64,000 nt of DNA from Planctomycetota bacterium (GCA_050246115.1 JBFWWP010000004.1:98521-162520); one strand, 5' to 3'; numbered from the stretch's first letter, positions 1 through 60,664 are shown. Numbers and translations are program-made. The notes: generated by a model not told the origin, from the sequence alone.

Positions 1-95
1 TCCTGGCGCCGTTCGAAGGAGTAGTCCAACGGCCCGCCGACCTCTGGTGTCAGATCTCCATCGCCCATGGCGATTGTCGCGCGTTCGCTCCCGCG

Positions 96-2582
96 GTGCG
101 GGCGGCGGAGCGCGCCCTCGAGCTGGACCCGCGAAGTTCGTGGGCGTGGCGACTCCTGGGACTCCGGCGTCTCGATCTCGCGGAGATCGAGCCGGCGATC
201 GCGGCCTTGACTCAGAGCAGCGACGTGAATCCCAGCGACTTCTGGTCATGGCGTGCGCTCGCCGAGCTCCACCGCGACCGCGGCGAGTACGAGAAGTCGT
301 TGGCCTGGATTCGGCACCGACATGCGTGGCGGCCCACGGACGACCGCATCTACGTCGAGCTGTTCGAGACGTGTCGCGCAGGTGGGCTTTGGGCGGAAGG
401 GGAACGTTGGTTCACCGAACTCGGGGCGGGGCGCTTCGACGAACCCGAGCGCCAGCTGTACCTGGGCCGTCTGCGCGAGGCGGCAGGCGACGCGACGGGT
501 GCGCTGGCCGCCTACGACACGGCGCTCGAGCTGGCACCGACGATGCGGGAGGCGCTCCTCCAGCGCTCCAAGTTCATGCGCAGGCTCGGTCGCAGGCAGG
601 AGTGCCGGCGAGACTTGGAGACGCTGCTCGCACTCGAGCCCGCACACACCGACGCGCTCGAGGTGTACATCTCAGATCTCGATAGCGGCGACGCGGAGCA
701 AGTCGCAGGTGCGACCGCTTTGCTCGAGCGAGCGCTGTCCAGCTCCCCGGACACACACGAGATCTACGGTCAGATCAACCGCCTCTCGCAACGAACGGGG
801 GATCCGGCACGGCTCGTCTACCTGTTCGAAGCCATGCGAGGTCGAACGGCGAGCCCCGCTACGCTCGAGGGGTACATCGGTACGGCGTTCCTCGATGCGG
901 GCCGGCTCGACGAAGCGGAGGTCGCCTTCCGCCAAGCGACCGCGATCAATCCCCACATGGCGTGGGGCTGGTCGCGGCTCGGCGATCTCGAGCGCGCACG
1001 CGGGAGGATCGACGAAGCGATCCGCCTTTGGGAACAGGCGATCGCGCGCAATCCGAGAGGCAGCTATCCCTACACGGCGCTCGCCGAAGTGGCATGCGAG
1101 CGCGGAGATCCGGAGGCGCGTTGGTCTGCCCTGTCGCGCCGGCTCGCAACAGACCCCGACAACCCAGACTTCCAAAGCGACCTCGAGGACCTGGCGGCGG
1201 AGCTCAGCTGCGTCGACCGTTTCGAGGAGTTCGTACGTTCCTTGCTCCCCGCCTCGCGAGCCCCCAACGAACTCATGACCCGCCTGGCGTACGTCCTCCA
1301 GGAGACCGGCCAGACGGCGCGCGCGATCGAAGCCTGCGATGAGGCGATCCGCTGGAATCCGCGCGACAGCTGGGCCCACGCCAAGCGCGCGACCTTTCTC
1401 CGGTTGCTCGACCGACACGACGAGGCGCTGACCGCCGCGGAGGCTTCGCTCGCCATCCTCCCGAGCAGCGCCGAAGCAGCGATCCAGCGGTACCTCTCGC
1501 TCTGCGCTACCGGGCGATCCGCCGCTGCCGATGCCGGCTTCTTCGATGCGATCCCGCGGGCTCCCCGGGCACGGCGGTTGTTCGACGTCTACGTGAATGA
1601 GCACGAGAAGCGGCGCCCGGCGGAGGCCGCGGCCCGCCTCTTGGAACACGCGAACGCGGTCATGCCAACGCTCGATCTGCTTCTCGCGGCGTCGCGGCTG
1701 TTGATTGCCGGCCGCAAGATCGAGCGCGCCTTCGCCATCATCGACCGCGTGTGCCACGAGTACCCCCAGGAAGCCGCCGGGTACTTTCGCGGGGTGACAC
1801 TCGCGAACGAGAAGAATCGCCGCGGTCGGCTCGAGACGTTCGCCATGCTCGGACTCACCACGCTGTCGGTACCTCGGCTCGAACTCGTCGAGTGGTTGGT
1901 CCACGACACCAACCGAGAGTGGTTTGCCCGTGCCGTGAGAGCGCGGCGGTTTCGGCGCGGCCTCGCCTCCTGTCGCTCCGAGGAAGAACTGCATCCGCTC
2001 GTCGAGCGCTGCCGTTCCCAGAGGTCAGCGTACGCCCGGTTGGCGCAGGTCAGACCCAGCGTCCTTGCGGTTCGGGTCGCGATCAGCGACCTGCACCAGG
2101 GCAAGTTCCGACGAGCCCGGCAGACTCTCGAGGCGGTCCTTCGCCTGCGTGCCGGCGACGTGCCGGCGCTCACGGTCCTGGCGAACGTCGCGATCCAATT
2201 GGGCGACGGCAAGGCGGCGCTCGAGTGCCTCCAGCGGACGCGCCGCGCCATGGTCGACGGCGAAGCCAACCGCTGGCACGACCTCGCCGTCGCAGCGCAT
2301 CTCCTCGTGGGCAACTTCGAGCGCGCGCAAGAAGCCGCTCGCGCCTCGTGGAGGCGGTATGAAGTCGAAGGGTCGTACTGGCCGCGATCCCTCGAGGGAA
2401 CCTGCCGCTCAATGGCCCTCGCGCACGCGCGCCGGGGACAACTCGCGGAGAGTCGCGAATGGGCCAAGCGGCATCAACTCGTTGCGTCTGACCGGAACCG
2501 GCGACGCTTGCGCTGGCGACTGCTCCTGGCACGCTGCCAACGGTGGCTGCGCTGGCGGCGGACGCCGCCCCGGCACGCGTAA
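96..2582 (+). CDS. TPR-repeat protein (large, all-alpha tetratricopeptide repeats); may be 5'-partial because the window starts just upstream
   Basis: 828-aa ORF with many degenerate 34-residue TPR-like units (W-LG-Y-A---A-P patterns, e.g. 'AWRLLGL', 'AAYDTALELAP', 'ARAIEACDEAIRWNP'). Coding-like composition throughout. The stop TAA at 2580-2582 lies inside the MITE-like element 2579-2661. Confidence 0.65.
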   Translation: MRAAERALELDPRSSWAWRLLGLRRLDLAEIEPAIAALTQSSDVNPSDFWSWRALAELHRDRGEYEKSLAWIRHRHAWRPTDDRIYVELFETCRAGGLWAEGERWFTELGAGRFDEPERQLYLGRLREAAGDATGALAAYDTALELAPTMREALLQRSKFMRRLGRRQECRRDLETLLALEPAHTDALEVYISDLDSGDAEQVAGATALLERALSSSPDTHEIYGQINRLSQRTGDPARLVYLFEAMRGRTASPATLEGYIGTAFLDAGRLDEAEVAFRQATAINPHMAWGWSRLGDLERARGRIDEAIRLWEQAIARNPRGSYPYTALAEVACERGDPEARWSALSRRLATDPDNPDFQSDLEDLAAELSCVDRFEEFVRSLLPASRAPNELMTRLAYVLQETGQTARAIEACDEAIRWNPRDSWAHAKRATFLRLLDRHDEALTAAEASLAILPSSAEAAIQRYLSLCATGRSAAADAGFFDAIPRAPRARRLFDVYVNEHEKRRPAEAAARLLEHANAVMPTLDLLLAASRLLIAGRKIERAFAIIDRVCHEYPQEAAGYFRGVTLANEKNRRGRLETFAMLGLTTLSVPRLELVEWLVHDTNREWFARAVRARRFRRGLASCRSEEELHPLVERCRSQRSAYARLAQVRPSVLAVRVAISDLHQGKFRRARQTLEAVLRLRAGDVPALTVLANVAIQLGDGKAALECLQRTRRAMVDGEANRWHDLAVAAHLLVGNFERAQEAARASWRRYEVEGSYWPRSLEGTCRSMALAHARRGQLAESREWAKRHQLVASDRNRRRLRWRLLLARCQRWLRWRRTPPRHA

Positions 2583-2661
2583 GGGGTCGCCCAAGGACCG
2601 GTCGAAGATGGCCCGAAGCAACGAGCAAGAGGGTGAAGTCATTCTTGGGCGACTCCTAAGG
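2579..2661. mobile_element. MITE-like element, short (internally deleted) copy: two ~20-bp inverted ends directly abutting. Overlaps the stop codon of the TPR gene.
   Basis: Sequence 'taaggggtcgcccaagg...gaagtcattcttgggcgactcctaagg' carries the same terminal inverted repeats as the full-length copies at 9184-9371 and 57411-57597. The internal 'accggtcgaagatggcccgaagcaacgagcaagagggtgaag' matches the right half of those copies. Confidence 0.55.
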
Positions 2662-2799
2662 GGCCGATCGGCGAGTGCGACGCAGCACGCGACCGCCCCC
2701 GTGGCCGACGACGAACCTCCTCGTGACCGCACTTCGTTGGCAGCGGATGCACTTGGCCCCGAGCCAAGAGAGGTGGCGCGAGGATCGCGGGTGACTGAA

Positions 2800-5700
2800 T
2801 CAGGGGCATGCAGACTGCGCACACCCCAGAGCATCGGCTGTCGGGTCCGACCCGCAGGACGATGGTGGTGGTAGCGGGCCCGAGCTGAACAGGAAGCCGA
2901 GGATCGTGATCACGTCGGCGATGTTGCTCGCACCGTCGTCGTTGCCATCGCACGCATCCATGCACGGTGGCGTGGAGCCCGCCGCGAAAGTCGCGTTGAG
3001 CAGGAAGATCGCGTCGGAGATGTCGCGCCCGCCATCCGCGTTGCAGTCGCCCCGTAAGAAGTCGGCGTTGCCCACGATCGTGCCGAGGGCCCAATCGACG
3101 GCGCGATCGATCAGATCCCGAGCGACGGGCGTCACCTGCAGCCAGGTCGAGTCCTCGAGGAACAAGAAAACACGCCGCGCGGGAGCCGCATGCCCCCCGA
3201 ACAACGGAGCGCCGGAGTCGGCGACGAGCACCGCGGCTTCGGCGGGCACGCCAGCGCGCGACGCGAGGACCGTCGCGCCGATGGGAAACGGCGAGACACC
3301 GACACTCATGTTGGCGGCGGTCGTGAAGACGGCTTGTGGAATCCCGGTCACCAGCCCCTGCGTGATGGGATGCGGCGCCACGGTCACTTCGATCGCGTTG
3401 GCTCCGAACGCCACGGCCCCGGCGTTCGCGAGCGGCTCACGATCGGGACGTAGCAGCGCGCTCTCCCAGAACAGCAGCGGCACGGCCTCGTCGCGAAACT
3501 CCGCACCGACGTTGGCCGAGGTCACGGTCGAGGACACGATGACCAAGTCATGCGTGGCGGCCAGTGCAGCTGCAGATGGGCGGTTGGCGGGCTCGTCGTC
3601 GTACGCGAGCACTTCGAGGCCACGGGCCCGCAAGTGATCGGCGAACGCTTCGTCCGCTGGGGTCGGTGGGAGCGAGCCACCGATCATGCCGACCAGCGGA
3701 AAGTCGCCGACACGCACGAACGCGACCTTCTGGGTGGCGACGAGTCCGTTCGCGCCGCTCACCCGCAAGGTGACATCGTAGATGCCGTCCTGGGCATACA
3801 CATGGCTGGGATTCTGGAGCGCACTCATCGATCCGTCACCAAAGCTCCACTCCCAAGCGGTCGCAACCGGAACGGTCGACAGATCGGTGAACTGCACGTT
3901 CAAGGGCGCGAGGCCACTCGTGACGCTGGCCGCGAAGTCGACTGCGCCGACGTATTTGATGCGCAGGATGTGGGAGCCGACGGCGGTGGGTGAAGCAAAG
4001 TCCTGGTCTGCGTAGAAGTCACTGAAATACAGCCCGTCCGGGCCGGCGGCCAGCGCGACCGCCGTGGCCTTGCCGTTGCCGACATAGCTCACGAACGGTG
4101 TGGGACCACTGATCAACGTGCCAGTCGGACTCAGAACGTACTCGCGGATCTGCTTGCCGTTCGACTGAGCACCCGTGGCCCAAGTCGGCCCCGAGTCAGC
4201 GATGAAGGCGTGACCCTGCTTGTCCGCGGGGAACAGGCTGCCGCCGAAAGTTGCGCCTTGGATGAACGCGATGTTCGTGGGCCCCACCGCGGGCGCCCAG
4301 TTGAGGATCGCGAAGTTGGTCATGCTGTTGTCGGAGCCGTTCCAGAGGTAGTTCTGGCCGGGGCTGATCTTCGCGAAGCGATCGATGCTGGGCCCGTTTT
4401 CGACCTCGTAGAGCGCTCCATCGGCTGCGCGCCAAGCACCGCCGAACGGATTGCGCAACCCATAGGCATACACGTAGTCGGCGGCGTTGATGCCGTTGCC
4501 CGCGTCGTAGAACGGATTGTCCACCGGCGCGGTGCCGTCGAGTTCGAGTCGCAGGATCTTGCCGCGGAACGAGTTCAGGTTCTGGGCCGTGCCCGCGTCG
4601 AAGCCGTCGCCCATGTGAACGTACAGTTTGCCATCCGGTCCGAGGCTCAAATTCGAGATCTGGTGGGACTGCCCCTGCGACTCACCCACCATGTTCAGGA
4701 TCACGTTCTGTTGACTCGCGGTCAGGCCTCCGTCGGTGCTCGAGAAGCGCACGACCCGCGGGTAGTGCGGCCCGCCGGCGTCGGCGAGGAAGGCTGCGAA
4801 CACATCCCCCGAACTCGGTTCGACGACGATGCCGGTGAGTCCCTGCTCTCCGGATCCGGGGAAGAGACCGGTGGGCGAGAAGTTGAGGAGGTTCGTGGCA
4901 TAGTCGGTGACGGTCCCCGACTGGGTCACCACCTTGATCGTGCCATAGAGTTCGGTCACGTAGTAGAGCGGAGCATCGGGACCGATGCCCGGGTTGGGCA
5001 CGAACGCGATGTTGACCGGCAGTCGGAATCCGCTCGCCACGATCTCCACTCGGTACCCCGGCTGGTGCATCTGCCAAGGCACCGGAATCCCGCGCGCGAG
5101 AGTGGAGAAGTCCGGTTGCGTCTGAGTACTGGACCCAACGTACGTGGCACCGACGGCGGACACCCAAAAGTAGGCATCGCTACCGAGACCGACACTCACC
5201 GACGGCAGATAGACGGTGTGCATGGCACCATCGTGGTCGGTGAAGGAGAGATCGCTCTCGGGCAGCACCAGGCCAGGGCTCAATCCCCCCGCCGAGATCC
5301 GGATCCGTGTCGGCGTGTGGAACGGGAGTGCCGGCGGATTGGTCACGGCGTTCGTCGTCCCGTCGAACCCCTGGAGCGCGAGCAGCAAGCCGCCCGTCGC
5401 GGACTCGACGAAGACTCCAGGAGCCACGGTCGCACCGGCAAGCACGACAGGTTGCCCCGAAATGTCGATCCAGGTGGGTGCGGGGGCAACCGCGAGGTCG
5501 TCGAGCTCGAGCGGGAAGATCTCGGTGGGAGGGCCGGTCACGAAAGTACGCTCCGACCACGCACTCCACTCCCCGCCGCCCGGCGCGCTGTCGTCTCGGT
5601 GACGCACCTGGAGTCGATAATCGTTGTCGTAGAAGAGCTCGGTGCGACCGGCGTGAGAACCGCTGAAGACGCCGTCGCCGAGGTGAGTGTGCACCGCTTC

Positions 5701-5961
5701 GAGCCCGGTGATGCACAGCGTGCTCCACACCCGCTCGACTGGCGTCACGGACCAAATCTCCCAGTCGGTGCAGAAGTGCGCGTCCCCCGGGTCCGGATCT
5801 GCAAACGGAGCGGTCTCCATGTGAACGTCGGCGGGATTCACGACCTGGCCATTGGCGACGGGCTCATTGATCGTGGGGGCGTTGGGCGGAAGTGCCGAGA
5901 CGAGAGTCGTGGCGAACCAACCGATTGCCAAGACCGCTCGGCCGCAGAGCATCTTCGACAT
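2800..5961 (-). CDS. Secreted multidomain protein: signal peptide, PQQ-type glucose/sorbosone dehydrogenase-like beta-propeller, PKD domain, unassigned alpha/beta domain, C-terminal dockerin module + Cys-rich tail
   Basis: Start trimmed to the ATG at 5961 ('MSKMLCGRAVLAIGWFATTLVSALP' signal-like). The 'YAYGLRNPFG' and 'GQNYLWNG' motifs are typical of the soluble glucose/sorbosone dehydrogenase (GSDH) fold. The PKD-like stretch is 'LNVQFTDLS...WEWSFGDGS...HVYAQDGIYDVTLRVSGANG'. C-terminus: 'RGDCNADGGRDISDAIFLLNATFAAGSTPPCMDACDGNDDGASNIADVITILGFLFSSGPLPPPSSCGSDPTADALGCAQSACP', with two Ca-binding-loop-like DxNxDG repeats characteristic of dockerin. Confidence 0.75.
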   Translation of the reverse strand: MSKMLCGRAVLAIGWFATTLVSALPPNAPTINEPVANGQVVNPADVHMETAPFADPDPGDAHFCTDWEIWSVTPVERVWSTLCITGLEAVHTHLGDGVFSGSHAGRTELFYDNDYRLQVRHRDDSAPGGGEWSAWSERTFVTGPPTEIFPLELDDLAVAPAPTWIDISGQPVVLAGATVAPGVFVESATGGLLLALQGFDGTTNAVTNPPALPFHTPTRIRISAGGLSPGLVLPESDLSFTDHDGAMHTVYLPSVSVGLGSDAYFWVSAVGATYVGSSTQTQPDFSTLARGIPVPWQMHQPGYRVEIVASGFRLPVNIAFVPNPGIGPDAPLYYVTELYGTIKVVTQSGTVTDYATNLLNFSPTGLFPGSGEQGLTGIVVEPSSGDVFAAFLADAGGPHYPRVVRFSSTDGGLTASQQNVILNMVGESQGQSHQISNLSLGPDGKLYVHMGDGFDAGTAQNLNSFRGKILRLELDGTAPVDNPFYDAGNGINAADYVYAYGLRNPFGGAWRAADGALYEVENGPSIDRFAKISPGQNYLWNGSDNSMTNFAILNWAPAVGPTNIAFIQGATFGGSLFPADKQGHAFIADSGPTWATGAQSNGKQIREYVLSPTGTLISGPTPFVSYVGNGKATAVALAAGPDGLYFSDFYADQDFASPTAVGSHILRIKYVGAVDFAASVTSGLAPLNVQFTDLSTVPVATAWEWSFGDGSMSALQNPSHVYAQDGIYDVTLRVSGANGLVATQKVAFVRVGDFPLVGMIGGSLPPTPADEAFADHLRARGLEVLAYDDEPANRPSAAALAATHDLVIVSSTVTSANVGAEFRDEAVPLLFWESALLRPDREPLANAGAVAFGANAIEVTVAPHPITQGLVTGIPQAVFTTAANMSVGVSPFPIGATVLASRAGVPAEAAVLVADSGAPLFGGHAAPARRVFLFLEDSTWLQVTPVARDLIDRAVDWALGTIVGNADFLRGDCNADGGRDISDAIFLLNATFAAGSTPPCMDACDGNDDGASNIADVITILGFLFSSGPLPPPSSCGSDPTADALGCAQSACP

Positions 5962-6210
5962 GGGAACCTCTCGTGTTGCGTGACCCGTCGCTCCAACCCG
6001 CAAGTACGAAGCCGCTGCTCTCGCGGTAGGCGGCTATCATGAGCACTGCCGCCCACGGCAACCACAGGCTCGTCGGCGGAGCGGCTCGATCCCGGCGGGC
6101 GTGGATCGAAATGGCCGCCCGCGTACCCCGAAATCCGCGATCCTTCGTGGCCGCGCGGTGCTACAACAGTACTCCCGGAGACGACCCTGACTCAACTACG
6201 GAGTTTACCC

Positions 6211-7416
6211 ATGCACCGAGATGTCCGCCTGGTCCTGATGAATGTCGTCGTGACTTGCATCCTTCTCTGGCTCGGCTCGACCTTCTTCGGCGGGACCGGG
6301 GTGGCTCTGCCGACCGCCCCCGCCCCCGGAATCTTCGTGTGGGGGGATGCCAACTGTGACGGTTCGCTCAACATCTCCGATCCAGTGACGATTCTGGGCT
6401 ATCTGTTCAGCTCGGCGCCGCTGCCTCCGGCATGCGCGCAATCCTTCTTCGCGCCGGACCAACTCGCTACCTTGCAGGAGATCCTCCCACACCTGAGCCG
6501 CGTGGAACTCGACGACGGCCTTGGCGGGACGGTCCCGACGATCCGCCTGACCGGAGTCAACCTGCAGATCGTGAACGGCTCGGGCGCGACCAACGGCAAT
6601 CCGGCAAGTCCAAACAGCGTAAACGGCATGACGAACGGGACCGGCAACTTGATCGTTGGCTACAACGAGTTCGGCACCGGCGGCAACAACCGCACGGGAT
6701 CTCACAACCTGGTCGTGGGCTCGGCGCTGCAGTACGAGCGTTGGGGCGGAGCGGTCTTGGGGCAGGGGAACGTCATCCGCGGCGCGTGGTCGAGCGTGAC
6801 CGGCGGGAACGCCAACACCGCCATCGGGGACTACGCCGCGATCACCGGCGGTCTCAACAACGAAGCTGCCGGCGACTACTCGTCGATTTCGGGTGGGCAG
6901 TTCAATGCCTCGAGCGGAGACATCGGTTGGGTCGGCGGCGGCAATGCCAACGAGGCCGCAGGAGTCGAGTCGTGCGTGTCGGGGGGAGCCAGCAACACGG
7001 CCCTCGGCGCCGCCTCCGCGGTGAGCGGCGGCGAGTTCAACAGTGCGGACGGTGACCGAGCCAGCGTGGCGGGTGGCAGAGCGAACAGCGCGGTTGGGCT
7101 CGGTGCCGTGGTCGTCGGCGGCCAAGACAACTTCGCGGGTGGCGTGCGAGCGGCGGTGTTCGGCGGGCAACGCAACGAGGCCGACGGAACCGCCGCGGTC
7201 GTGGTGGGTGGCGGCGGACCGGATCCGTTCCTGGACGGCAACCGCGCGCTCGGCGACTGGTCGGTGATCACGGGCGGACGCCAAAATGACGCGACTGGCA
7301 ACGGCTCGACCGTCGGCGGTGGACGTCAGAACGTCACCGCTCCCACCGCCGAGTACTCGGTGGTGGCAGGCGGCTGTTTGGAAACGACGTTCAGCCCGTG
7401 CGAGCTTGCCCCGTAG
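6211..7416 (+). CDS. Secreted repeat protein: N-terminal signal/TM, a single dockerin-like half-repeat, then ~14-residue 'GG-x-N-x-A-x-G' tandem repeats (YadA-head / tail-fibre-like)
   Basis: ATG at 6211 with GGAG 7 nt upstream. N-terminus: 'GDANCDGSLNISDPVTILGYLFSSAPLPPAC'. Then 'SVTGGNANTAIGDYAAITGGLNNEAAGDYSSISGGQFNASSGDIGWVGGGNANEAAGVESCVSGGASNTALGAASAVSGGEFNSADGDRASVAGGRANSAVG...'. Ends 'GGCLETTFSPCELAP'. Confidence 0.6.
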   Translation: MHRDVRLVLMNVVVTCILLWLGSTFFGGTGVALPTAPAPGIFVWGDANCDGSLNISDPVTILGYLFSSAPLPPACAQSFFAPDQLATLQEILPHLSRVELDDGLGGTVPTIRLTGVNLQIVNGSGATNGNPASPNSVNGMTNGTGNLIVGYNEFGTGGNNRTGSHNLVVGSALQYERWGGAVLGQGNVIRGAWSSVTGGNANTAIGDYAAITGGLNNEAAGDYSSISGGQFNASSGDIGWVGGGNANEAAGVESCVSGGASNTALGAASAVSGGEFNSADGDRASVAGGRANSAVGLGAVVVGGQDNFAGGVRAAVFGGQRNEADGTAAVVVGGGGPDPFLDGNRALGDWSVITGGRQNDATGNGSTVGGGRQNVTAPTAEYSVVAGGCLETTFSPCELAP

Positions 7417-7508
7417 CCGAGAAGGCGCAGCCACCCGTTCCATGCGAAGGCGCGTGCGCCACTGGGCGGCGGGCATCGGGTCTTGGGGGCTGCAGAGCGG
7501 CGAAGCCG

Positions 7509-7845
7509 GATGCGGACAGGCTGTCCGCGCTCCCAGGGCGCGCCGGGGCGTGTGGAGAGCGTGGGACTTGCGTATGCGTCGCGCTGGTACGATGGGCGGG
7601 GAGAAGACGGGAACGGGATCGTCGGGCGTGGGACTTGCGTATGCGTCGCGTTGGTGCGTTGGGCGGGGAGAAGACGGGAACGGGATCGTCGGGCGTGGGC
7701 TCGTGCGTATGCGTCGCGTTGGTGCGTTGGGCGGGGGGAGAGGAGCAAGACCCTCGGGAATGCCGCCGGAACTCGAAAGGGGAGCAGGTTCGTCGATGAC
7801 GTGCAGGGCACGCTATGCAGGGCGCTGGAGTCACCATCGCTGTGC
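7509..7845. repeat. Dispersed intergenic repeat family B, copy 1, containing a 67-bp unit tandemly repeated ~2.8 times (7561-7750)
   Basis: 'gatgcggacaggctgtccgcgctcccagggcgcgccggggc.tgtg.agagcg.gggacttgcgtatgcgtcgcg.tggt.cg.tgggcgggg.agaagacggg.acgggatcgtcg' is shared with 25648-25760. The distal 'gggcacgctatgcagggcg...gagtcaccatcgc.gtg' is shared with 25783-25815. Contains the perfect palindrome 'ggacaggctgtcc'. Confidence 0.6.
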
Positions 7846-7992
7846 TGATCAGGAGCCCATGCGGCTTGCTTCGGGTCTAGAGGACAGCGGTCGAATCGAG
7901 TACTCTTCTGCCTTCCAAACCGCACGCGCGGTAACGACATGCAGACTGGGGACGCGTTCCCCTGAAGTTCTTGCCCGCTGGGAGAGGCAAAC

Positions 7993-9120
7993 ATGAAGCA
8001 CAAGACGGGCCGGGTCGCCATCGTCGCGGGTTGTCGAACCCCATTCGTCAAGGCGCGAACGGCGTTCGAACCGCTCGGGCCGCTTGCGCTCGGAGCCCGC
8101 GCTGTGTCCGGGCTGTTGCAGCAGTCGGAGATCCCGTCCGCCGAGATCGAAGCGGTGGCTTTCGGGGTGGTGGTACCTGAGCCGGGTCGACCCAATCTCG
8201 CGCGCGAAATCGTCTTCGAGACCGGACTCCCGATGTCCGTCGAGGCGCAGACCGTGTCTTCGTACTGCATCACCGGACTACGTTCGCTGACGATCATCGC
8301 GGACGCGATTGCCCGCGGACGCATCGACGTCGGGATCGCGGGCGGCGCTGAGTCGCTCTCCCGGGCAGACCCCAACACCTTCCGCGAACCGACCACTGGC
8401 CTCTCCATGGGGGAGCACATGGAGCTCACCGCCAAGGAGTGGAAGCTGCCCCGAGCGCGGATCGATGAGATCGCGCTCGCTAGTCACCAGCGGGCCGTGG
8501 CCGCGCAAACGCACCTCGATGCAGAGATCGTGGAGGTCGAAGGCGTGCGGCGCGACTCGGGACCGCGGGCGACGTCGTCGCTCGAGGCACTCGCGGGTCT
8601 CAAGCCCGTCTTCGGCGAGACTGGAGTCATCACGGCCGGCAACGCCTCGCCAGTGACGGACGGAGCGGCGGCGGTGCTGTTGATGAGCGAGGAGCGCGCG
8701 CGCGCCGACGGCCGCGAACCGCTCGCGTTCATCCATGCCATGGAGTACGGTGCCATCGACCCCAAACAAGGGCTCTTGATGGCGCCCGCCTCGGTCGTCC
8801 CGCGCCTCCTCGAACGGTCGGGCATCGCGCTGGGCGACATCGATCTGATCGAGATCCACGAGGCGTTCGCCGCGCAAGTGCTCGCCAACGTCATGGCCTG
8901 GGAGCAGGGTTGGGGCGGCAAGCCGACCGGCACCGTGGATTGGGATCGTGTGAACGTGAACGGCAGCTCGCTGGCCATCGGGCATCCATGGTCGGCAACC
9001 GGCGGCCGCATCGTCACCACACTCGCCCACGAGATGGCCCGCCGCGACAGTAGTTGGGGACTGGTCAGCATCTGTGCCGCCGGCGCAATGGCCGGCGCCT
9101 TCTTGCTCGAACGGAGCTGA
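7993..9120 (+). CDS. Acetyl-CoA C-acyltransferase / thiolase family protein
   Basis: 375 aa. N-terminus 'VAIVAGCRTPFVKA', active-site-like 'SSYCITGLRS', C-terminal 'HPWSATGGRIVTTLAHEMARRD...SICAAGAMAGAFLLE' typical of thiolases. RBS GAGAGG upstream of the ATG. Confidence 0.85.
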   Translation: MKHKTGRVAIVAGCRTPFVKARTAFEPLGPLALGARAVSGLLQQSEIPSAEIEAVAFGVVVPEPGRPNLAREIVFETGLPMSVEAQTVSSYCITGLRSLTIIADAIARGRIDVGIAGGAESLSRADPNTFREPTTGLSMGEHMELTAKEWKLPRARIDEIALASHQRAVAAQTHLDAEIVEVEGVRRDSGPRATSSLEALAGLKPVFGETGVITAGNASPVTDGAAAVLLMSEERARADGREPLAFIHAMEYGAIDPKQGLLMAPASVVPRLLERSGIALGDIDLIEIHEAFAAQVLANVMAWEQGWGGKPTGTVDWDRVNVNGSSLAIGHPWSATGGRIVTTLAHEMARRDSSWGLVSICAAGAMAGAFLLERS

Positions 9121-9183
9121 ACGCGCCCCCGCGACCGGGACGACGCGGCCAGCTAGAGGCCAAAACCACCGAAGGACCGGCTG

Positions 9184-9371: not shown

Positions 9372-9412
9372 GCCGGGTCCTCTCACCGCAGTTCGAAAGG
9401 CAACGACGGTCC

Positions 9413-10703: not shown

Positions 10704-12380
10704 ATGAGGTCTTGGAGCATGTGGGCAGTTCTCATCGCAGGCTTCGGCTGGGGCACCCCCCTCCTCGGCCAGCCCGGTACCACGATCATCACCCATGGCT
10801 TCCAGTTGGACGGCGTGCTCCCGGCGTGGCCCGCGGTCATGGGTGCCGCGATGGCGCAGCTTCCCCAAGCCGCCGCGCCCACGGGCACCGTCCTCGTGTA
10901 CGACCCGAGCACCGGCGCGTGGTCTCCCGTGTTCGGTTCCGGAGACCCTACCGGGGAGATCGTCTTGATCTTCGACTGGGCCGACGACTCGTCGTGGTTT
11001 CCCGGCGACGACGATCGGCAGGGAACCGCTCATGGGGCGGCCGCCGCCCTCTACGGCGCGCTCCGTGCCCCGCACATTAGCGGCGCCCCGGCAATGACGA
11101 GCTTTCTCGCATGGCCGGGAGGTGCACCTCGACGACTCCACTTCCTGGGCCACAGTCGTGGGACCTGCGTGAACAGCGAGGTAGTTCGTCGACTGGTGGT
11201 CGCGGGCTACACGGTAGACCACGTCACGACGCTGGATCCTCACCCCGTTGGACCGGTGGCCGATCTCCTTGACCCGCAGCCGACCACTTGGGTTGGTGTG
11301 AACTGGGCCGACAACTACTTTCGTCAGGATGACTGTGACCTCGACTACGGTTGTTTCGGGTTCGACTTCGATGGTCAGCAGATCATCGGTGCCGCGAACC
11401 ACGACCTCGGGCTCGACGCCTTCGGACTGATCGACAACCGCCTGAACAGTTGCAGCTTGGAGCACTCCTTGGTGCACACCTGGTATCACGGCACGATCGA
11501 TACCGCGACGGCGTCGGACGGCGACTGTCCGGTCGAGCGTGCCAACTGGTACTTCGCGGGGGGGGTCGGCGAAGGTTACGCCTTCTCGCAGGTCGCGGGT
11601 GGAGCCTCGCAACGTCCCTGTGGTCCGAGCGGCGGGTGCGCGGACGCGGGACGCACCGTCGCGACGCCAGCGTCCCCGATCATCAACGGCGACTTCGAGT
11701 TCGGGGCATTCCAGGACGCGGGATGGCGCTGGCACGGTGGCGGCGGCCCAGGGCGGATCATCGAGGAATCCGGGAACTCCTTCCTGACCCTCGACTCCAC
11801 GGGGCCGTCGCGGACTCACAGTCGTTTCTACCTGGACGTCTTCGCAACGAACCTGCAGTACGACCTACGGGTGTTCGCGCCGGGGGCCGCAGCTTCCTTG
11901 GTGATCACGTTGAGAGAAGCCGGATCGCTCGTCGACCTGCTCATCGACAGCGTCCCGCTCTCGTCTTCGACGTCCTGGAGCGCTCGCAGCGTTGACCTGA
12001 CCAGCATCCCCAAGGGGCGGCTCTACTCGCTGACGGTAGCGCTCACGCCCGCCAACACCTTGGCCATTGCCGACCTGGACGAGTTCGGCCTCGAGTTCGC
12101 GGCCGGACCGCAGTTCTGGCGCGGCGACTGCAACGGCGACGGCGCCATCGATCTCGCCGACGCCGTGGCGGCGCTCAGCGCCTTGTTTGGAGCCGGTGGC
12201 CCGCCGCCTTGTGGCGTCGCTTGCGACGCGAACGACGACGGCACGTTCGACGTGGCCGATGCGGTCTCGACCCTGCTCGCGCTCTTCGGATCGGCGGGTC
12301 CGCTACCGCCCCCCAGTGTCGGCTGCGGACCCGACCCGACCGCAGATGCGCTGGATTGCGCAAACCCGACCTGCCCATGA
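10704..12380 (+). CDS. Secreted alpha/beta-hydrolase (lipase-like, GHSRG nucleophile elbow) with beta-sandwich region and C-terminal dockerin module + Cys-rich tail
   Basis: ATG 10704 with AAGG upstream. Signal-like N-terminus. 'LHFLGHSRGTCV' matches GxSxG. C-terminus: 'FWRGDCNGDGAIDLADAVAALSALFGAGGPPPCGVACDANDDGTFDVADAVSTLLALFGSAGPLPPPSVGCGPDPTADALDCANPTCP'. Confidence 0.75.
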   Translation: MRSWSMWAVLIAGFGWGTPLLGQPGTTIITHGFQLDGVLPAWPAVMGAAMAQLPQAAAPTGTVLVYDPSTGAWSPVFGSGDPTGEIVLIFDWADDSSWFPGDDDRQGTAHGAAAALYGALRAPHISGAPAMTSFLAWPGGAPRRLHFLGHSRGTCVNSEVVRRLVVAGYTVDHVTTLDPHPVGPVADLLDPQPTTWVGVNWADNYFRQDDCDLDYGCFGFDFDGQQIIGAANHDLGLDAFGLIDNRLNSCSLEHSLVHTWYHGTIDTATASDGDCPVERANWYFAGGVGEGYAFSQVAGGASQRPCGPSGGCADAGRTVATPASPIINGDFEFGAFQDAGWRWHGGGGPGRIIEESGNSFLTLDSTGPSRTHSRFYLDVFATNLQYDLRVFAPGAAASLVITLREAGSLVDLLIDSVPLSSSTSWSARSVDLTSIPKGRLYSLTVALTPANTLAIADLDEFGLEFAAGPQFWRGDCNGDGAIDLADAVAALSALFGAGGPPPCGVACDANDDGTFDVADAVSTLLALFGSAGPLPPPSVGCGPDPTADALDCANPTCP

Positions 12381-57751: not shown

Positions 57752-60589
57752 CTACGGACACGGCGGGAAGCTGTTGCAACCCAGACCATCGTTGGTCGGA
57801 TCCGGTCCGCAGATCGGGAACGGCGCCGGCGGCGGAGCTCCGCCACTGAACAGGAACGCGAGGTTCCAGATCGCATCGGCGATGTTCAGATTGCCGTCGT
57901 CGTTCGAGTCGCACGCATCGTCGCACACCGGCGGAGCGGGCACGGTGCCACCGGGGAACAGGAACCCGAGCAATCGGATCCCGTCGGCGATGTCGACCAC
58001 GCCGTCCGCGTTGCAGTCGCCACGAATCAGAGCCTGCACGCCAACAACGGCTTGCGCGGCGGACAACGTGGGATCGTGCTGCGCGGACATGCCTGGATCG
58101 TGGAAACCCGACTGGACCGGGGTATGCACCGCGGAGTGGATCGGGTTGTGGGCCGCGGAGGCCATCGGATCGTGAACCACGGAGAACGACGGATCATGGA
58201 TCGCAGAGTCACCAGCGCTGTGCATGCTGGTCCAGAACGGATCGTGGATCGTCGAAGTCAGCGGCCCGTGCAGCGCACTCTCACCGGGGATGTGAACGCT
58301 CGAGACGCCCGGATTGTGGGTCGCGGACAAGCCCGGATCATGCTGCGCCGAGTTGAACGGCGAGTGTACCGACGACGTGAGCGGATCGTGGTTCGCGGAC
58401 AGCGCCGCGTCGTGGACCACCGACTGCGCGGGGTCGTGCTGCGCCGAAGCCGCCGGATCGTGCATGCCGGACCAGTGAGGATCGTGCACGGTCGAGGTCA
58501 GCGGATTGTGCAACACGCTGTTGGCTGCGTCGTGAACCGACGAGATCGCCGGGTCGTGCGTACCCGAGACCGTCGGGTCGTGCTGATTCGAATTGAACGG
58601 CGAGTGCACGACGCTGATGGACGGATCGTGCTGCGTCGACGTGGTCGCGTCGTGAACGTTGGAGCGGGCCGGGTCGTGAACGACCGACTGCGTGGGATCG
58701 TGCTGCATCGACCAGAACGGGTCGTGCGTGTTCGATCCCAGTGGGTCGTGCTGACCCGACAAGGTCGGCACGTGCACCGTCGAGACCGCCGGGTCGTGGA
58801 TGTCGGACGCCAACGGCCGGTGGACTCCGGACATCAGCGGCGCGTGCACACCGGACACCAACGGATCGTGGTGGTTCGAGTTGAACGGCGAGTGCACCGC
58901 ACTCACCACGGGTACGTGGACTTGCGACAGTCCCGGCTCGTGGATGTTGGTGGTCACCGGGTTGTGGAACTGCGACAACGAGGGGTCGTGTTGCGACGAC
59001 CAGAACGGGTCGTGCACCGCCGAGTTGAACGGGTTGTGGTTGCTGCTGATCCCCGGCTCGTGGATCGGCGAGATCGTCGGGTTGTGGAACGACGACACGC
59101 TCGGACTATGCGTCACCGACTGATCCGGAGCATGGAAGATCGAGTTCAGCACCGGGTGCGAGCCCGACACGAGCGGATCGTGCTGCGACGACAGGGTCGG
59201 AGCATGGAACGGCGACAGCGCCGGGTCGTGTTGGCTCGAGACGAACGGATCGTGTTGAGCCGACATGACCGGAGAGTGCACGGTCGACACTACGGGGTCG
59301 TGCTGCGCGGTCAGGGCCGGGTCGTGCACCGCCGACAAGTTGGGATTGTGCGTCGACGAATCCGCGGCGGTGTGCATGCCGGTCCAGTGAGGATCGTGGA
59401 CGAGCGAGGTCGATGCAATGTGCTGAGAGCTCGGCCCCGGCAAGTGGACGCCGGACACGAACGGGTCGTGGCCGGACCCCGACAAGTTGGGGTTGTGGGC
59501 CGAGAAGGTCGGGTCGTGGCCCGTGGCCGTCAGCATGGGATCGTGCAAGGGCGACAGCGTCGCGTCGTGCTGGCTGGTCACCACTGGGTCGTGGATCGGC
59601 GAGATCGACGGATCGTGCATCGAGGTCCACAACGGATCATGCAGCTGCGAGAACTCCGGCGGGTGAGCTTGGCTCATGCCGGGATCATGCAACGGCGACA
59701 AGCCCGGCACGTGCACCTGCGACACGAACGGCTCGTGCTGGTCGGAGCGAATCGGCGCGTGCATGACCGAAGTCAGCGGCTGGTGCGTGTTGGTCATGGT
59801 CGGATCGTGGACGATCGACTGAGCGGGGTCGTGGGTGCTGGAGATCGCCGTGTCGTGCATGGACGACCAGAACGGGTCGTGGATGTCCGACGTCAGCGGG
59901 TTGTGCAGGCTGCTGCTGGCCGGATCGTGGATCGAGGAGGTCACGGGATCGTGAGTGCCGGACGTCGCGGCGTCGTGCTGCGCCGAGACCATCGGTGCGT
60001 GTACCGATGAGTCGAACGGCTGGTGCACCATCGACTGGTTCGGGTTGTGCAGGATCGACGCCGCGGGTTCGTGGATCGCGGACTGGGCTGCCGTGTGCAT
60101 GCCGGTCCAGTGGGGATCGTGCACATCCGAGGTCAACGGGTTGTGGAGCGTGCTGCTGCCGGGGTCGTGCACGGCGGAGATCGCCGGATCGTGGCCGGTC
60201 GACACGCTCGGGTCGTGCTGCTGGGAGGTCAGCGGTGAGTGGACCGCAGAGTCCAGCGGCGCGTGAATCGGCGACAGGTCTGGATCGTGCAGAATCGACA
60301 CCGCCGGGTCGTGCAACGCCGAGTTCGTGGCCGTGTGCATGCCCGACCAAACCACGTCATGGATGGTCGACGTCAGGGGGTTGTGCAGGGCGCTCTCGCC
60401 CGGGATGTGGACGACCGAAAGCGCTGGGTCGTGCTGAACCGACATCGCCGGATCGTGCTGCGCCGAAGCGCCGGGGTCGTGCAACACCGACGCCACTGGG
60501 TCGTGCGTGGTTTGTGCAAACGAATGCGAGGGCACGCATGCGGCAAACGCGCATACGACTCCCGCGATCACGAGACACTTGCGAAGCAT
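57752..60589 (-). CDS. Secreted protein consisting of ~100 tandem octapeptide repeats (consensus H-D-P-x-x-S-x-x) followed by a C-terminal dockerin module + Cys-rich tail
   Basis: Trimmed to 'MLRKCLVIAGVVCAFAACVPSHSFAQ' (signal peptide) at 60589. Residues ~29-850: 'HDPVASVL HDPGASAQ HDPAMSVQ HDPALSVV ...'. C-terminus: 'LIRGDCNADGVVDIADGIRLLGFLFPGGTVPAPPVCDDACDSNDDGNLNIADAIWNLAFLFSGGAPPPAPFPICGPDPTNDGLGCNSFPPCP'. Confidence 0.8.
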   Translation of the reverse strand: MLRKCLVIAGVVCAFAACVPSHSFAQTTHDPVASVLHDPGASAQHDPAMSVQHDPALSVVHIPGESALHNPLTSTIHDVVWSGMHTATNSALHDPAVSILHDPDLSPIHAPLDSAVHSPLTSQQHDPSVSTGHDPAISAVHDPGSSTLHNPLTSDVHDPHWTGMHTAAQSAIHEPAASILHNPNQSMVHQPFDSSVHAPMVSAQHDAATSGTHDPVTSSIHDPASSSLHNPLTSDIHDPFWSSMHDTAISSTHDPAQSIVHDPTMTNTHQPLTSVMHAPIRSDQHEPFVSQVHVPGLSPLHDPGMSQAHPPEFSQLHDPLWTSMHDPSISPIHDPVVTSQHDATLSPLHDPMLTATGHDPTFSAHNPNLSGSGHDPFVSGVHLPGPSSQHIASTSLVHDPHWTGMHTAADSSTHNPNLSAVHDPALTAQHDPVVSTVHSPVMSAQHDPFVSSQHDPALSPFHAPTLSSQHDPLVSGSHPVLNSIFHAPDQSVTHSPSVSSFHNPTISPIHEPGISSNHNPFNSAVHDPFWSSQHDPSLSQFHNPVTTNIHEPGLSQVHVPVVSAVHSPFNSNHHDPLVSGVHAPLMSGVHRPLASDIHDPAVSTVHVPTLSGQHDPLGSNTHDPFWSMQHDPTQSVVHDPARSNVHDATTSTQHDPSISVVHSPFNSNQHDPTVSGTHDPAISSVHDAANSVLHNPLTSTVHDPHWSGMHDPAASAQHDPAQSVVHDAALSANHDPLTSSVHSPFNSAQHDPGLSATHNPGVSSVHIPGESALHGPLTSTIHDPFWTSMHSAGDSAIHDPSFSVVHDPMASAAHNPIHSAVHTPVQSGFHDPGMSAQHDPTLSAAQAVVGVQALIRGDCNADGVVDIADGIRLLGFLFPGGTVPAPPVCDDACDSNDDGNLNIADAIWNLAFLFSGGAPPPAPFPICGPDPTNDGLGCNSFPPCP
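58045..60505. repeat. 24-bp in-frame tandem repeat array (coding for the HDPxxSxx octads), ~100 units, with a 240-bp super-period
   Basis: On the plus strand 'ggatcgtg' (reverse complement of CAC-GAT-CC = His-Asp-Pro) recurs every 24 nt. The Trp-containing octads (HDPxW[ST][GS]M) recur about every 10 units. Confidence 0.85.
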
Positions 60590-60664
60590 GGAATACCTCC
60601 TCCTCTTTCCTCGTGAACCGCGGCGACGTCCGACAAGGACGAGCGCGCGAGGTCCACGCATCGG

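What the first reader, a model, noticed from the sequence alone, without database searches (positions are those of the whole stretch)
2800..5961. PQQ-type sugar dehydrogenase propeller + PKD + dockerin: a redox enzyme as dockerin cargo
The GSDH-like beta-propeller ('YAYGLRNPFG', 'GQNYLWNG') is normally a soluble periplasmic aldose/sorbosone dehydrogenase. Here it is fused to a PKD domain, an extra alpha/beta domain and a dockerin. This implies surface display of an oxidoreductase on the cohesin scaffold, together with a lipase (10704-12380). That is an unusual, non-polysaccharide cargo set.
Basis: partly seen in the sequence, partly recalled or inferred. Interest (0 to 1): 0.55.

Follow-up and report, generated by a model that had tools for sequence, protein, structure and literature searches.

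The report
Surface-tethered sugar-dehydrogenase-like propeller protein
This is a real 1053-residue secreted protein from a Planctomycetota bacterium: a sugar-dehydrogenase-type propeller with several accessory domains and a dockerin-like tail. It belongs to a large family that databases already annotate, and nothing in the window shows a cohesin scaffold.

Summary
**Observation: confirmed.** Window 2800-5961 (- strand) encodes a 1053-aa secreted protein. It is identical to an NCBI MAG protein named 'PQQ-dependent sugar dehydrogenase [Planctomycetota bacterium]'.
- **Domains found as described:** a GSDH six-bladed propeller (Pfam 114 bits; best folds 2ISM and 3A9G), a PKD domain, an alpha/beta domain, and a C-terminal dockerin-like module with two calcium-binding loops.
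two N-terminal FN3-like domains. The first is His-rich and accompanies this GSDH subfamily in other architectures too.

**Interpretation: partly supported.**
- The architecture is conserved in more than 120 protein clusters, and those that carry names are Phycisphaerae/Planctomycetota. The C-terminal anchors are interchangeable and include NCBIfam 'GC-type dockerin'.
- The Cys-rich dockerin-like tail is a generic tag. It occurs on 4 window proteins and more than 1000 database proteins.
- No cohesin or pqq gene was detected in the 64 kb.
- Relatives carry PA14, CBM6 and CBM35 modules, so 'non-polysaccharide cargo' is doubtful.

**PQQ site:** the catalytic His433, Arg503-Asn504 and Gly523-Pro524 are invariant. 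The canonical C-terminal Arg-x-Arg is replaced by Thr-x-Val in the whole family, so PQQ dependence is unproven.

**Verdict:** a new variant of a known kind, of modest interest.

The parts
5893..5961 (-). Signal peptide (aa 1-23, MSKMLCGRAVLAIGWFATTLVSA|LPP)
   Evidence: Read from the sequence: a basic N-region, a hydrophobic helix and a VSA cleavage-like site. AF2 shows a helix at aa 2-19. The start agrees with NCBI protein P0001.
5521..5892 (-). FN3-like domain 1, His/Asp-rich (aa 24-147). Invariant residues: D45 H47 M48 F53 D55 D60 H62 W67 H91 D96 R120 D123; C64, C83, H93 and H121 are at least 90% conserved.
   Evidence: AF2 pLDDT about 90. Foldseek gives only generic FN3 tandems. No Pfam or PDB sequence family. 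It recurs directly upstream of the same GSDH subfamily in other architectures. The His cluster is absent from tandem-array relatives.
5068..5520 (-). Second beta-sandwich domain (aa 148-298)
   Evidence: AF2 models all-beta strands with pLDDT >90. It is absent from the PA14/CBM architectures and is found separately in P0360.
3946..5067 (-). GSDH-type six-bladed beta-propeller (aa 299-672). Invariant: H433, R503-N504, E521-N522-G523-P524, D527-R528, K603. K631 is at least 90% conserved.
   Evidence: Pfam PF07995 at 114 bits. PDB sequence matches 2ISM and 3A9G. Foldseek target TM 0.77-0.84 to GSDH structures. Residue mapping to E. coli YliI.
3709..3945 (-). PKD domain (aa 673-751)
   Evidence: Pfam PKD_4 at 52.5 bits and PKD at 41.2 bits. 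PDB matches 1L0Q and ColH PKD domains.
3076..3708 (-). Rossmann/flavodoxin-like alpha/beta domain of unknown function (aa 752-962), with an invariant H864 followed by P865 (at least 90% conserved) in the 'HPIT' motif
   Evidence: AF2 shows a beta-alpha-beta pattern with pLDDT about 90. No significant Pfam or PDB sequence match; 1 of 27 members gives ThuA at E 0.09.
2803..3075 (-). Cys-rich dockerin-like module (aa 963-1053): two 12-residue Ca-loops, each followed by a helix, then the CG.DPT.D.L.C....CP tail; six invariant Cys
   Evidence: Motif scan, alignment A4, weak profile matches to solved dockerins, AF2 helices at 981-992 and 1014-1026 after a low-confidence linker at 962-967. Orthologues carry PF00404 or NF041540 at this position.
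12081..12377 (+). Same dockerin-like module at the C-terminus of the alpha/beta-hydrolase-like protein 10704-12380
   Evidence: Pfam Dockerin_1 at 18.2 bits, below the cut-off. PDB dockerin 2Y3N_B at E 1.4e-4.
57755..58081 (-). Same dockerin-like module at the C-terminus of the Pro-rich 970-aa protein 57752-60664
6346..6408 (+). Single dockerin-like Ca-loop plus helix near the N-terminus of the divergently transcribed Gly-rich repeat protein 6211-7416
   Evidence: The protein has no Pfam family.

Best explanation
The gene encodes a Sec-exported extracellular multidomain protein. Its catalytic core is a GSDH/Asd-type six-bladed propeller, the fold of the soluble PQQ/Ca-dependent aldose dehydrogenases.

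**Likely mechanism (inferred).** Substrate would bind on the top face of the propeller. His433 would act as general base and a quinone-type cofactor would accept the hydride. The most likely cofactor is PQQ with Ca2+, held by Arg503, Asn504 and the Gly523-Pro524 backbone.

**Subfamily.** The propeller belongs to a distinct, widespread subfamily that is always preceded by a His-rich FN3-like domain. In other lineages this unit is fused to carbohydrate-binding modules (PA14, CBM6/35). The likely substrates are therefore sugars or glycans outside the cell.

**Accessory domains.** In Phycisphaerae the core is extended by a PKD spacer, an uncharacterised alpha/beta domain and a C-terminal Ca-binding dockerin-like module. 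This module is the lineage's generic tag for holding secreted proteins at the cell surface. Its partner is unknown.

**Shown:** the fold, the domain order, residue conservation, the family's spread and the interchangeability of the anchors.
**Inferred:** export, the cofactor, the substrate class and surface tethering.
For: - **Fold and family:** Pfam GSDH at 114 bits. Best PDB sequence and fold matches are PQQ aldose dehydrogenases.
- **Active-site residues:** H433 aligns with YliI H147 (the sGDH His144 equivalent), R503/N504 with R214/N215, and E521-x-G523-P524 with E-H-G-P. All are invariant in 46 family members. The same motifs recur in distant architectures.
- **Glycan link:** PA14, CBM6, CBM35_2, GLEYA and Golvesin_C are fused to the same FN3+GSDH unit. 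AA12 enzymes provide a precedent for multidomain extracellular PQQ dehydrogenases (PMC6881789).
- **Anchor:** the Ca-loops are intact. There are weak but consistent matches to solved dockerins. Orthologues end in PF00404 or NF041540 'GC-type dockerin domain-anchored protein' modules. A flexible linker precedes the module.
- **Conservation:** more than 120 clusters at 52-79% identity over 88-100% of the length.
Against: - **Arg-x-Arg lost.** The canonical motif on strand 6A is G-R-[LI]-R-[DE]-V-x-x-GPDG in YliI, 7CDY and 2ISM; 3A9G keeps the G-R-L-R-D-V part, followed by DDDG. It corresponds to sGDH R406/R408, and R406 is also conserved in fungal AA12 (PMC6881789). In the whole family it reads G-K-A-T-x-V.
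- **Lys377 equivalent uncertain.** It is not conserved in position; K603 aligns only with a 12-residue gap.
- **Partial profile matches.** Pfam matches only positions 15-223 of 332. TIGR03606 scores 52.8 bits against a cut-off of 434.55.
- **Other substitutions.** Gln (sGDH Q231) is Phe506, and the canonical D-E after the Ca site is D527-R528.
- **Missing context.** No pqq genes, electron-acceptor domain or cohesin are in the window. There is no conserved gene neighbourhood.
- **No experimental data.** No member of the subfamily has been characterised.
Confidence: 0.55

Rival explanations
1. Cellulosome-like 'planctosome' cargo. The dockerin-like module would bind a cohesin on a dedicated scaffoldin. 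That would assemble this oxidoreductase, the hydrolase at 10704-12380 and other tagged proteins into one surface complex.
For: - The two-repeat Ca-binding module matches solved type I dockerins.
- Four tagged proteins lie within 64 kb.
- A non-cellulolytic cohesin/dockerin complex has been hypothesised for Phycisphaerae of the family Nemodlikiaceae (PMC6461901).
Against: - No cohesin is detectable in any window ORF.
- The module is below the Pfam dockerin threshold.
- It carries six invariant Cys and an extra CG.DPT..C..CP tail that classical dockerins lack.
- Orthologues use several unrelated dockerin flavours.
- Many hits are short proteins (about 90-190 aa) or fragments.
- No binding data exist.
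Confidence: 0.2
2. Non-catalytic propeller. The GSDH fold would serve as a binding or adhesion platform, as in vertebrate HHIP. With the FN3, PKD, Ig and dockerin-like modules it would form a surface adhesin or lectin rather than an enzyme.
For: - The PQQ carboxylate-binding Arg-x-Arg is lost and blades 5-6 are divergent.
- HHIP is a detectable structural relative (E 2e-13).
- The architecture is rich in adhesion-type domains.
- There is no recognisable electron-acceptor partner.
Against: - The general-base His, Arg-Asn, ENGP and a further set of top-face residues are invariant across more than 100 clusters and across unrelated architectures. That pattern is typical of a conserved active site.
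- The best fold matches are the enzymes (E 1e-18 to 1e-20), not HHIP.
Confidence: 0.12
3. An enzyme with different chemistry. The His-rich FN3-like domain would supply a metal centre (for example Cu, Zn or Fe), or would be part of the active site. The FN3+propeller unit would then use a cofactor or metal arrangement different from the canonical PQQ-Ca site.
For: - The extra conserved residues (H47-M48, C64/C83, H91-x-H93) occur only in GSDH-associated copies of the domain, not in tandem-array relatives.
- 83 of 100 long representatives pair this domain with the GSDH motif.
- The canonical PQQ carboxylate ligands are missing.
Against: - There is no structural or sequence similarity to any known metal-binding domain.
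- C64 and C83 probably just form a hairpin disulfide. This is inferred from strand register in the model.
Confidence: 0.13

Closest known systems
Soluble PQQ-dependent aldose sugar dehydrogenases (E. coli YliI/Asd 2G8S, T. thermophilus TTHA0570 2ISM, P. aerophilum 3A9G/3A9H, S. coelicolor 3DAS, A. calcoaceticus sGDH 1C9U)
   Same: - Six-bladed GSDH propeller: Pfam PF07995, Foldseek E 1e-17 to 1e-20, target TM 0.77-0.84 for the Asd-type entries and about 0.61 for sGDH 1C9U.
- Conserved general-base His, Arg-Asn and the Gly-Pro Ca site.
- Exported.
   Different: - Those enzymes are single-domain periplasmic proteins of about 350-450 aa.
- This protein has 1053 aa and six extra modules.
- It lacks the strand-6A Arg-x-Arg.
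- It has a 12-residue insertion in the 5B-5C loop.
- Identity is only 19-26%.
Fungal CAZy AA12 PQQ pyranose dehydrogenases (CcPDH; TrAA12 6H7T), and the bacterial AA12-like six-bladed PQQ proteins surveyed in preprint 10.64898/2026.07.10.737718
   Same: - Extracellular, multidomain GSDH-fold oxidoreductases associated with carbohydrate-binding modules.
- The concept is the same: a secreted quinoprotein acting on glycans.
   Different: - A weaker structural match (E 1e-11, target TM 0.60).
- The metal-site motif here is the Asd-type ENGPSxD, not the AA12 NxxD...D/E.
- There is no cytochrome b (AA8) domain.
- The equivalent of CcPDH Arg621 is absent.
NCBIfam NF041540 'GC-type dockerin domain-anchored protein'
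   Same: - Orthologues of this very protein carry NF041540 at the same C-terminal position (P0035 at 59 bits).
- Same logic: a secreted protein ending in a two-repeat dockerin-like module.
   Different: - The window protein's tail does not hit NF041540.
- It is a Cys-rich variant with six invariant Cys that ends ...C.QSACP rather than ...GC.
Clostridial/ruminococcal type I dockerins (PF00404) and the proposed Phycisphaerae 'planctosome' (PMC6461901)
   Same: Tandem 12-residue Ca-loops, each followed by a helix, at the C-terminus of secreted enzymes. There is a weak sequence match to solved dockerins.
   Different: - No cohesin partner has been identified.
- Extra disulfide-type Cys and a C-terminal extension are present.
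- The cargo is redox or unknown rather than glycoside hydrolases or peptidases.
PVC-type heme-binding CxxCH proteins (TIGR02604 N-terminal GSDH-like domain)
   Same: A weak hit through the later blades (orthologue P0035, E 1.5e-5, aligned over aa 414-658). It is also a divergent GSDH-like propeller from the PVC superphylum.
   Different: There is no cytochrome c domain or CxxCH motif here, and scores are far below the family cut-off (21.9 against 122.2 bits).
Hedgehog-interacting protein (HHIP)
   Same: GSDH-fold propeller inside a multidomain extracellular protein (Foldseek E 2e-13).
   Different: HHIP is non-enzymatic. In this protein the catalytic-type residues are invariant.

Membership tests
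GSDH / soluble PQQ-dependent sugar dehydrogenase (PF07995) | Profile match above the curated threshold | tested here: met
   114.2 bits against a cut-off of 25, but only profile positions 15-223 of 332.
GSDH / soluble PQQ-dependent sugar dehydrogenase (PF07995) | Six-bladed GSDH-type propeller fold, rather than NHL/YWTD | tested here: met
   The AF2 model's top 14 Foldseek PDB hits are all GSDH enzymes (E 1e-17 to 4e-20). The Asd-type entries reach target TM 0.77-0.84 and sGDH about 0.61. Paraoxonase- and lactonase-type propellers reach only about 1e-7.
GSDH / soluble PQQ-dependent sugar dehydrogenase (PF07995) | General-base His (sGDH His144 / YliI His147) | tested here: met
   H433 aligns and is invariant in 46 of 46 sequences.
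GSDH / soluble PQQ-dependent sugar dehydrogenase (PF07995) | Arg-Asn pair contacting PQQ O4/O5 (sGDH R228/N229; CcPDH R430/N431) | tested here: met
   R503 and N504 are invariant. The residue roles are taken from PMC6881789.
GSDH / soluble PQQ-dependent sugar dehydrogenase (PF07995) | Active-site Ca2+ ligands from the Gly-Pro backbone (sGDH G247/P248) | tested here: met
   E521-N522-G523-P524 is invariant and aligns to the YliI E-H-G-P.
GSDH / soluble PQQ-dependent sugar dehydrogenase (PF07995) | Arg-x-Arg on strand 6A binding PQQ carboxylates (sGDH R406/R408; YliI RIRDV) | tested here: not met
   All four canonical sequences have G-R-[LI]-R-[DE]-V. The family has G-K-A-T-x-V, so T633 and V635 sit at those positions. 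This alignment agrees with the AF2 strand topology. A rival hhalign register is shifted by one blade and was rejected. K631, two residues upstream and at least 90% conserved, might compensate.
GSDH / soluble PQQ-dependent sugar dehydrogenase (PF07995) | Lys/Arg at the end of strand 5B (sGDH K377) | tested here: inconclusive
   The positional equivalent is G591. Invariant K603 aligns to YliI K314 only across a 12-residue gap.
GSDH / soluble PQQ-dependent sugar dehydrogenase (PF07995) | PQQ binding and dye-linked sugar oxidation | not testable with these tools
   Needs recombinant protein.
TIGR03606 non_repeat_PQQ (sGDH subfamily) | Score above the NCBIfam cut-off | tested here: not met
   52.8 bits against 434.55.
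Type I dockerin (PF00404) | Two tandem Ca-binding loops (D/N at positions 1, 3, 5, 9 and 12), each followed by a helix | tested here: met
   The loops read DCNADGGRDISD and DGNDDGASNIAD. AF2 places helices at 981-992 and 1014-1026.
Type I dockerin (PF00404) | Profile match above the gathering score | tested here: not met
   No hit at E<0.1 for this protein. The same module scores 18.2 and 14.2 bits in neighbours, against a cut-off of 22.9. Weak matches to PDB dockerins: E 0.003-0.009 and 1.4e-4.
Type I dockerin (PF00404) | A cognate cohesin-bearing scaffoldin | tested here: not met
   No cohesin Pfam hit in about 38 window ORFs. The rest of the genome could not be searched.
NF041540 GC-type dockerin domain-anchored protein | HMM hit at the C-terminus, which ends in Gly-Cys | tested here: not met
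   No hit for the window tail. Orthologue P0035 scores 59.4 bits against a cut-off of 29; P0015 and P0095 score 23-27 bits. The window tail ends ...SACP.
PKD domain (PF00801/PF18911) | Profile match above threshold | tested here: met
   41.2 bits (cut-off 23.5) and 52.5 bits (cut-off 27).
CAZy AA12 | The nine CcPDH PQQ-binding residues used as a signature (R273, H363, R430, N431, H539, H560, W563, N564, R621) | tested here: inconclusive
   The H363, R430 and N431 equivalents are present. The R621 equivalent is absent. The others were not mapped because no CcPDH sequence or coordinates were at hand. The fold match to 6H7T is weaker than to Asd-type enzymes.
ThuA-like / class I glutamine-amidotransferase-like domain (for aa 752-962) | Profile match | tested here: not met
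   Only 1 of 27 members gives ThuA, at E 0.09. There is no PDB sequence hit. The resemblance rests on the secondary-structure pattern and on my memory of an HPIT motif.

The most novel reading that the evidence does not exclude
The His-rich FN3-like domain plus the Arg-x-Arg-less GSDH propeller would form a previously unrecognised two-domain catalytic unit. The FN3 domain would supply a metal or electron-transfer site, or a lid over the active site. This would be a new class of extracellular bacterial glycan oxidoreductase, analogous to AA12+AA8 in fungi. In Phycisphaerae it would be displayed at the cell surface through lineage-specific dockerin-like anchors.
Probability: 0.15. Interest if true: 0.7.

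Novelty: new variant of a known kind. Interest (0 to 1): 0.35.

Why it matters
- **A neglected enzyme group.** If the protein is active, Phycisphaerae (abundant aquatic and soil polysaccharide degraders) would display a quinoprotein-type sugar or glycan dehydrogenase on their surface. That would be a bacterial counterpart of the fungal AA12 auxiliary activities. The FN3+GSDH subfamily comprises hundreds of clusters, many with PA14 or CBM6 modules, and would be an uncharacterised CAZy-relevant redox family.
- **Annotation caution.** The name 'PQQ-dependent sugar dehydrogenase' is applied to this family even though one hallmark PQQ-binding motif is missing.
- **Dockerin caution.** The dockerin-like tags of Planctomycetota appear to be generic and interchangeable anchors. 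They should not be read as evidence of a cellulosome-like scaffold without a cohesin.

Tried and rejected
1. **NHL/YWTD or lactonase propeller.** Rejected. There are no such Pfam hits, and Foldseek ranks GSDH enzymes 10-12 orders of magnitude better.
2. **Cohesin or pqq genes in the window.** None found in about 38 ORFs.
3. **Conserved operon context.** Orthologues in a Tepidisphaera-named genome (P0104) and a Phycisphaerae MAG (P0076) sit among unrelated genes. The gene appears monocistronic.
4. **YliI homologue search to build a diverse canonical profile.** It returned only enterobacterial sequences at 77% identity or more, so it was of little use. I replaced it with sequences read out of the PDB alignments.
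5. **Second hhalign register** (K603/I605 aligned to the Arg-x-Arg). Rejected because it shifts the alignment by one blade and contradicts the AF2 strand topology.
6. **Family assignment for the alpha/beta domain.** There is no significant Pfam or PDB sequence hit.
7. **DOMON/AA8 cytochrome, cupredoxin or other metal-domain identity for the N-terminal domain.** Foldseek and profile searches give only generic FN3 hits.
8. **Model coordinates are not exposed**. His clustering, domain packing and PQQ docking could therefore not be examined.
9. **Rfam scan of 1-13000.** Nothing found.
10. **'Lipase' identity of 10704-12380.** A GHSRG motif is visible by eye, but there is no Pfam or PDB catalytic-domain match.

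Full report

The 64-kb window is about 66% GC. The ORF at 2800..6003 on the minus strand has the codon-position GC pattern of a true gene, with GC3 of 0.81. Translation from the ATG at 5961 gives 1053 aa. That sequence is 100% identical over its full length to an NCBI MAG protein named 'PQQ-dependent sugar dehydrogenase [Planctomycetota bacterium]', on a 209-kb contig (P0001).

Pfam finds GSDH (PF07995, aa 333-544, 114 bits against a cut-off of 25) and PKD/PKD_4 (aa 677-747).

**2. Anatomy**

An AlphaFold2 model built from a 46-sequence family alignment has mean pLDDT 86.3. Combined with a second model of the N-terminal region (pLDDT 91.9), it gives seven parts:

| Part | Residues | Notes |
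|---|---|---|
| Signal peptide | 1-23 | |
| FN3-like domain 1 | 24-147 | Conserved His/Asp/Met/Cys set: D45, H47, M48, D55, D60, H62, C64, C83, H91, H93, D96, R120, H121, D123 |
| Second beta-sandwich | 148-298 | |
| Six-bladed propeller | 299-672 | |
| PKD domain | 673-751 | |
| Rossmann-like alpha/beta domain | 752-962 | |
| Dockerin-like module | 963-1053 | Follows a low-confidence linker |

The dockerin-like module has two canonical 12-residue Ca-loops (DCNADGGRDISD and DGNDDGASNIAD). Each is followed by a helix. The module ends in a CG.DPT.D.L.C....CP tail and has six invariant cysteines.

Foldseek matches them only to generic FN3 tandems (E 2e-4 or weaker). They have no Pfam or PDB sequence family. 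The alpha/beta domain likewise has no significant sequence match.

**3. Is the propeller GSDH-type, and is it a quinoprotein?**

The fourteen best Foldseek PDB matches are all GSDH-type enzymes: 2ISM, 3A9G, 7CGZ/7CDY, 3DAS, 2G8S and sGDH. E-values run from about 1e-17 to 4e-20. Target TM is 0.77-0.84 for the Asd-type entries. HHIP scores 2e-13 and fungal AA12 (6H7T) 1e-11. Paraoxonase- or lactonase-type propellers reach only about 1e-7. The 'scores better as NHL/YWTD' refutation therefore fails.

I mapped the PQQ site by profile alignment to E. coli YliI and to 7CDY, 2ISM and 3A9G. Residue roles came from PMC6881789.

Conserved and invariant in the family:
- H433, the general-base His.
- R503-N504, the Arg-Asn pair.
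- E521-N522-G523-P524, the Ca-site Gly-Pro.
- E372, at the top of blade 2.

Not conserved:
- All four canonical enzymes have G-R-[LI]-R-[DE]-V at the start of strand 6A. This corresponds to sGDH R406/R408, and R406 is conserved even in fungal AA12. The whole family has G-K-A-T-x-V instead, with T633 and V635 at the Arg positions.
- The Lys/Arg at the end of strand 5B is replaced by G591, followed by a 12-residue conserved loop.
- Gln (sGDH Q231) is Phe506.
- The canonical D-E is D527-R528.

The conserved K603, K631 and R528 lie in the same blades or loops (K603 and R528 are invariant; K631 is at least 90% conserved). They could take over carboxylate binding, but I could not test this because model coordinates are not exposed.

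A second hhalign run produced a register shifted by one blade. I rejected it because it contradicts the AF2 strand topology.

In sum, the redox half of the site is intact and the cofactor-anchoring half is remodelled. PQQ dependence is plausible but unproven. The pattern of invariant top-face residues argues for an enzyme rather than a passive scaffold.

**4. How widespread is it, and what does the family tell us?**

The whole-protein search returned more than 120 clusters at 52-79% identity over 88-100% of the length. Those that carry names are from Phycisphaerae or other Planctomycetota, and many are named 'PQQ-dependent sugar dehydrogenase' or 'PKD repeat protein/glucose/arabinose dehydrogenase'. 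The core (FN3s, propeller, PKD, alpha/beta domain) is constant.

The C-terminus varies. It may include an optional Ig (I-set) or Big_7 domain. In about two-thirds of the tails I could delimit by eye, it ends in a two-repeat dockerin-like module of one of several sequence flavours. One flavour is recognised by NCBIfam as NF041540 'GC-type dockerin domain-anchored protein': P0035 scores 59 bits, and P0015 and P0095 score just below the cut-off. The window protein's Cys-rich flavour is not recognised by NF041540 or by Pfam Dockerin_1.

An exhaustive profile search with the N-terminal region found 779 clusters. The first FN3-like module recurs immediately upstream of the same GSDH subfamily in quite different architectures. 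These carry PA14, CBM6, CBM35_2, GLEYA, Golvesin_C, Big_7 or DUF1349 modules.
- 83 of 100 long representatives carry the GSDH motif.
- The subfamily's signature motifs are nearly identical across these architectures.
- Tandem-array relatives of the FN3 module lack the His cluster.

FN3(His)+GSDH is therefore a conserved functional unit, and its fusion partners point to carbohydrates.

**5. The dockerin/cohesin interpretation**

The module is dockerin-like by three criteria:
- The Ca-loop residues are intact.
- The family profile matches solved dockerins weakly (E 0.003-0.009).
- The copy in 10704-12380 matches 2Y3N_B at 1.4e-4.

Several observations limit the interpretation:
- The module occurs on four unrelated proteins in this window. 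Three copies are C-terminal and one is a single N-terminal repeat.
- It occurs on more than 1057 database proteins, mostly from Planctomycetota MAGs.
- No cohesin and no pqq gene is detectable in about 38 window ORFs.
- Orthologues have no conserved neighbourhood.

Here the evidence supports only a generic Ca-binding surface-anchoring tag with an unknown partner.

The 'lipase' partner could not be confirmed. It has no Pfam or PDB catalytic match, only a GHSRG motif seen by eye.

**6. Most likely function**

The protein is probably a Sec-exported, surface-tethered sugar or glycan oxidoreductase. His433 would act as general base over a quinone-type cofactor, probably PQQ with Ca2+. The His-rich FN3 domain would act as an obligatory partner, and the PKD and alpha/beta modules as spacers or accessory domains.

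| Explanation | Confidence |
|---|---|
| Surface-tethered sugar/glycan oxidoreductase (best) | about 0.55 |
| True cohesin-dockerin complex | 0.20 |
| Different cofactor or metal chemistry involving the FN3 His cluster | 0.13 |
| Non-catalytic adhesin or lectin, HHIP-like | 0.12 |

**7. Comparison with known systems, and novelty**

It works like the Asd/sGDH enzymes and resembles fungal AA12 in concept. As a member of the GSDH superfamily it passes the fold, Pfam, His, Arg-Asn and Gly-Pro tests. It fails the Arg-x-Arg test and the sGDH-specific TIGR03606 cut-off.

As a dockerin it passes the Ca-loop test. It fails the Pfam threshold and the cohesin-partner test within the window.

A 2026 preprint surveys about 22,000 bacterial AA12-like six-bladed PQQ proteins using a nine-residue signature that includes the C-terminal Arg (10.64898/2026.07.10.737718). 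This subfamily would not meet that signature.

The protein itself is already in databases and annotated. The FN3(His)+GSDH subfamily and its dockerin-tagged Phycisphaerae form appear to be uncharacterised. I rate it a new variant of a known kind, with interest 0.35.

Noticed in passing
window 2803-3075 (-), 12081-12377 (+), 57755-58081 (-), 6346-6408 (+): A Cys-rich dockerin-like module (RGDCN.DG..DI.DA...L..LF...PPC..ACD.NDDG..N..DA...L..LF...P.P..CG.DPT.D.L.C....CP, six invariant Cys) tags four unrelated proteins in 64 kb. A profile of it finds more than 1057 proteins, mostly from Planctomycetota MAGs. Many are short proteins of 90-190 aa or fragments. No curated model (Pfam Dockerin_1, NF041540) captures it above threshold.
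   Followed up: partly
window 5521-5892 (-); proteins P0313, P0321, P0324, P0339, P0341, P0342: A roughly 120-aa FN3-like domain with a conserved His/Met/Cys set (DVHME, H.C, H.HLGDG, RH.D) sits directly upstream of one GSDH subfamily in many architectures (PA14, CBM6, Golvesin_C and others). Tandem-array relatives (up to 18 copies per protein) lack the His cluster. No Pfam model covers it. It may be a metal-binding or active-site partner domain.
   Followed up: partly
window 6211-7416 (+): This gene is transcribed divergently from the target. It encodes a 401-aa protein with a single dockerin-like repeat near the N-terminus. The rest is Gly-rich repeats of the type GG..N.A.G..S.VSGG. It has no Pfam or NCBIfam family.
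   Followed up: no
window 7559-7760 (+): Three tandem copies of a 67-nt unit (96% and 61% identity to the first copy) lie in the intergenic region between 6211-7416 and the thiolase gene at 7993-9120. There is no Rfam match in this region.
   Followed up: partly
window 57752-60664 (-) and 60665-62074 (-): A 970-aa protein has Pro-rich 'cornifin-like' repeats (aa 514-634) and the dockerin-like tail. It directly abuts an upstream 469-aa ORF with no family (stop and start are adjacent), which suggests an operon of unknown function.
   Followed up: no
It has no Pfam, NCBIfam or PDB match to any hydrolase family, so its catalytic identity is unverified.
   Followed up: partly
window 9413-10543 (+): A tandem universal-stress-protein (Usp) pair is followed by a roughly 70-aa Lys/Ala-rich, highly basic C-terminal tail.
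   Followed up: no
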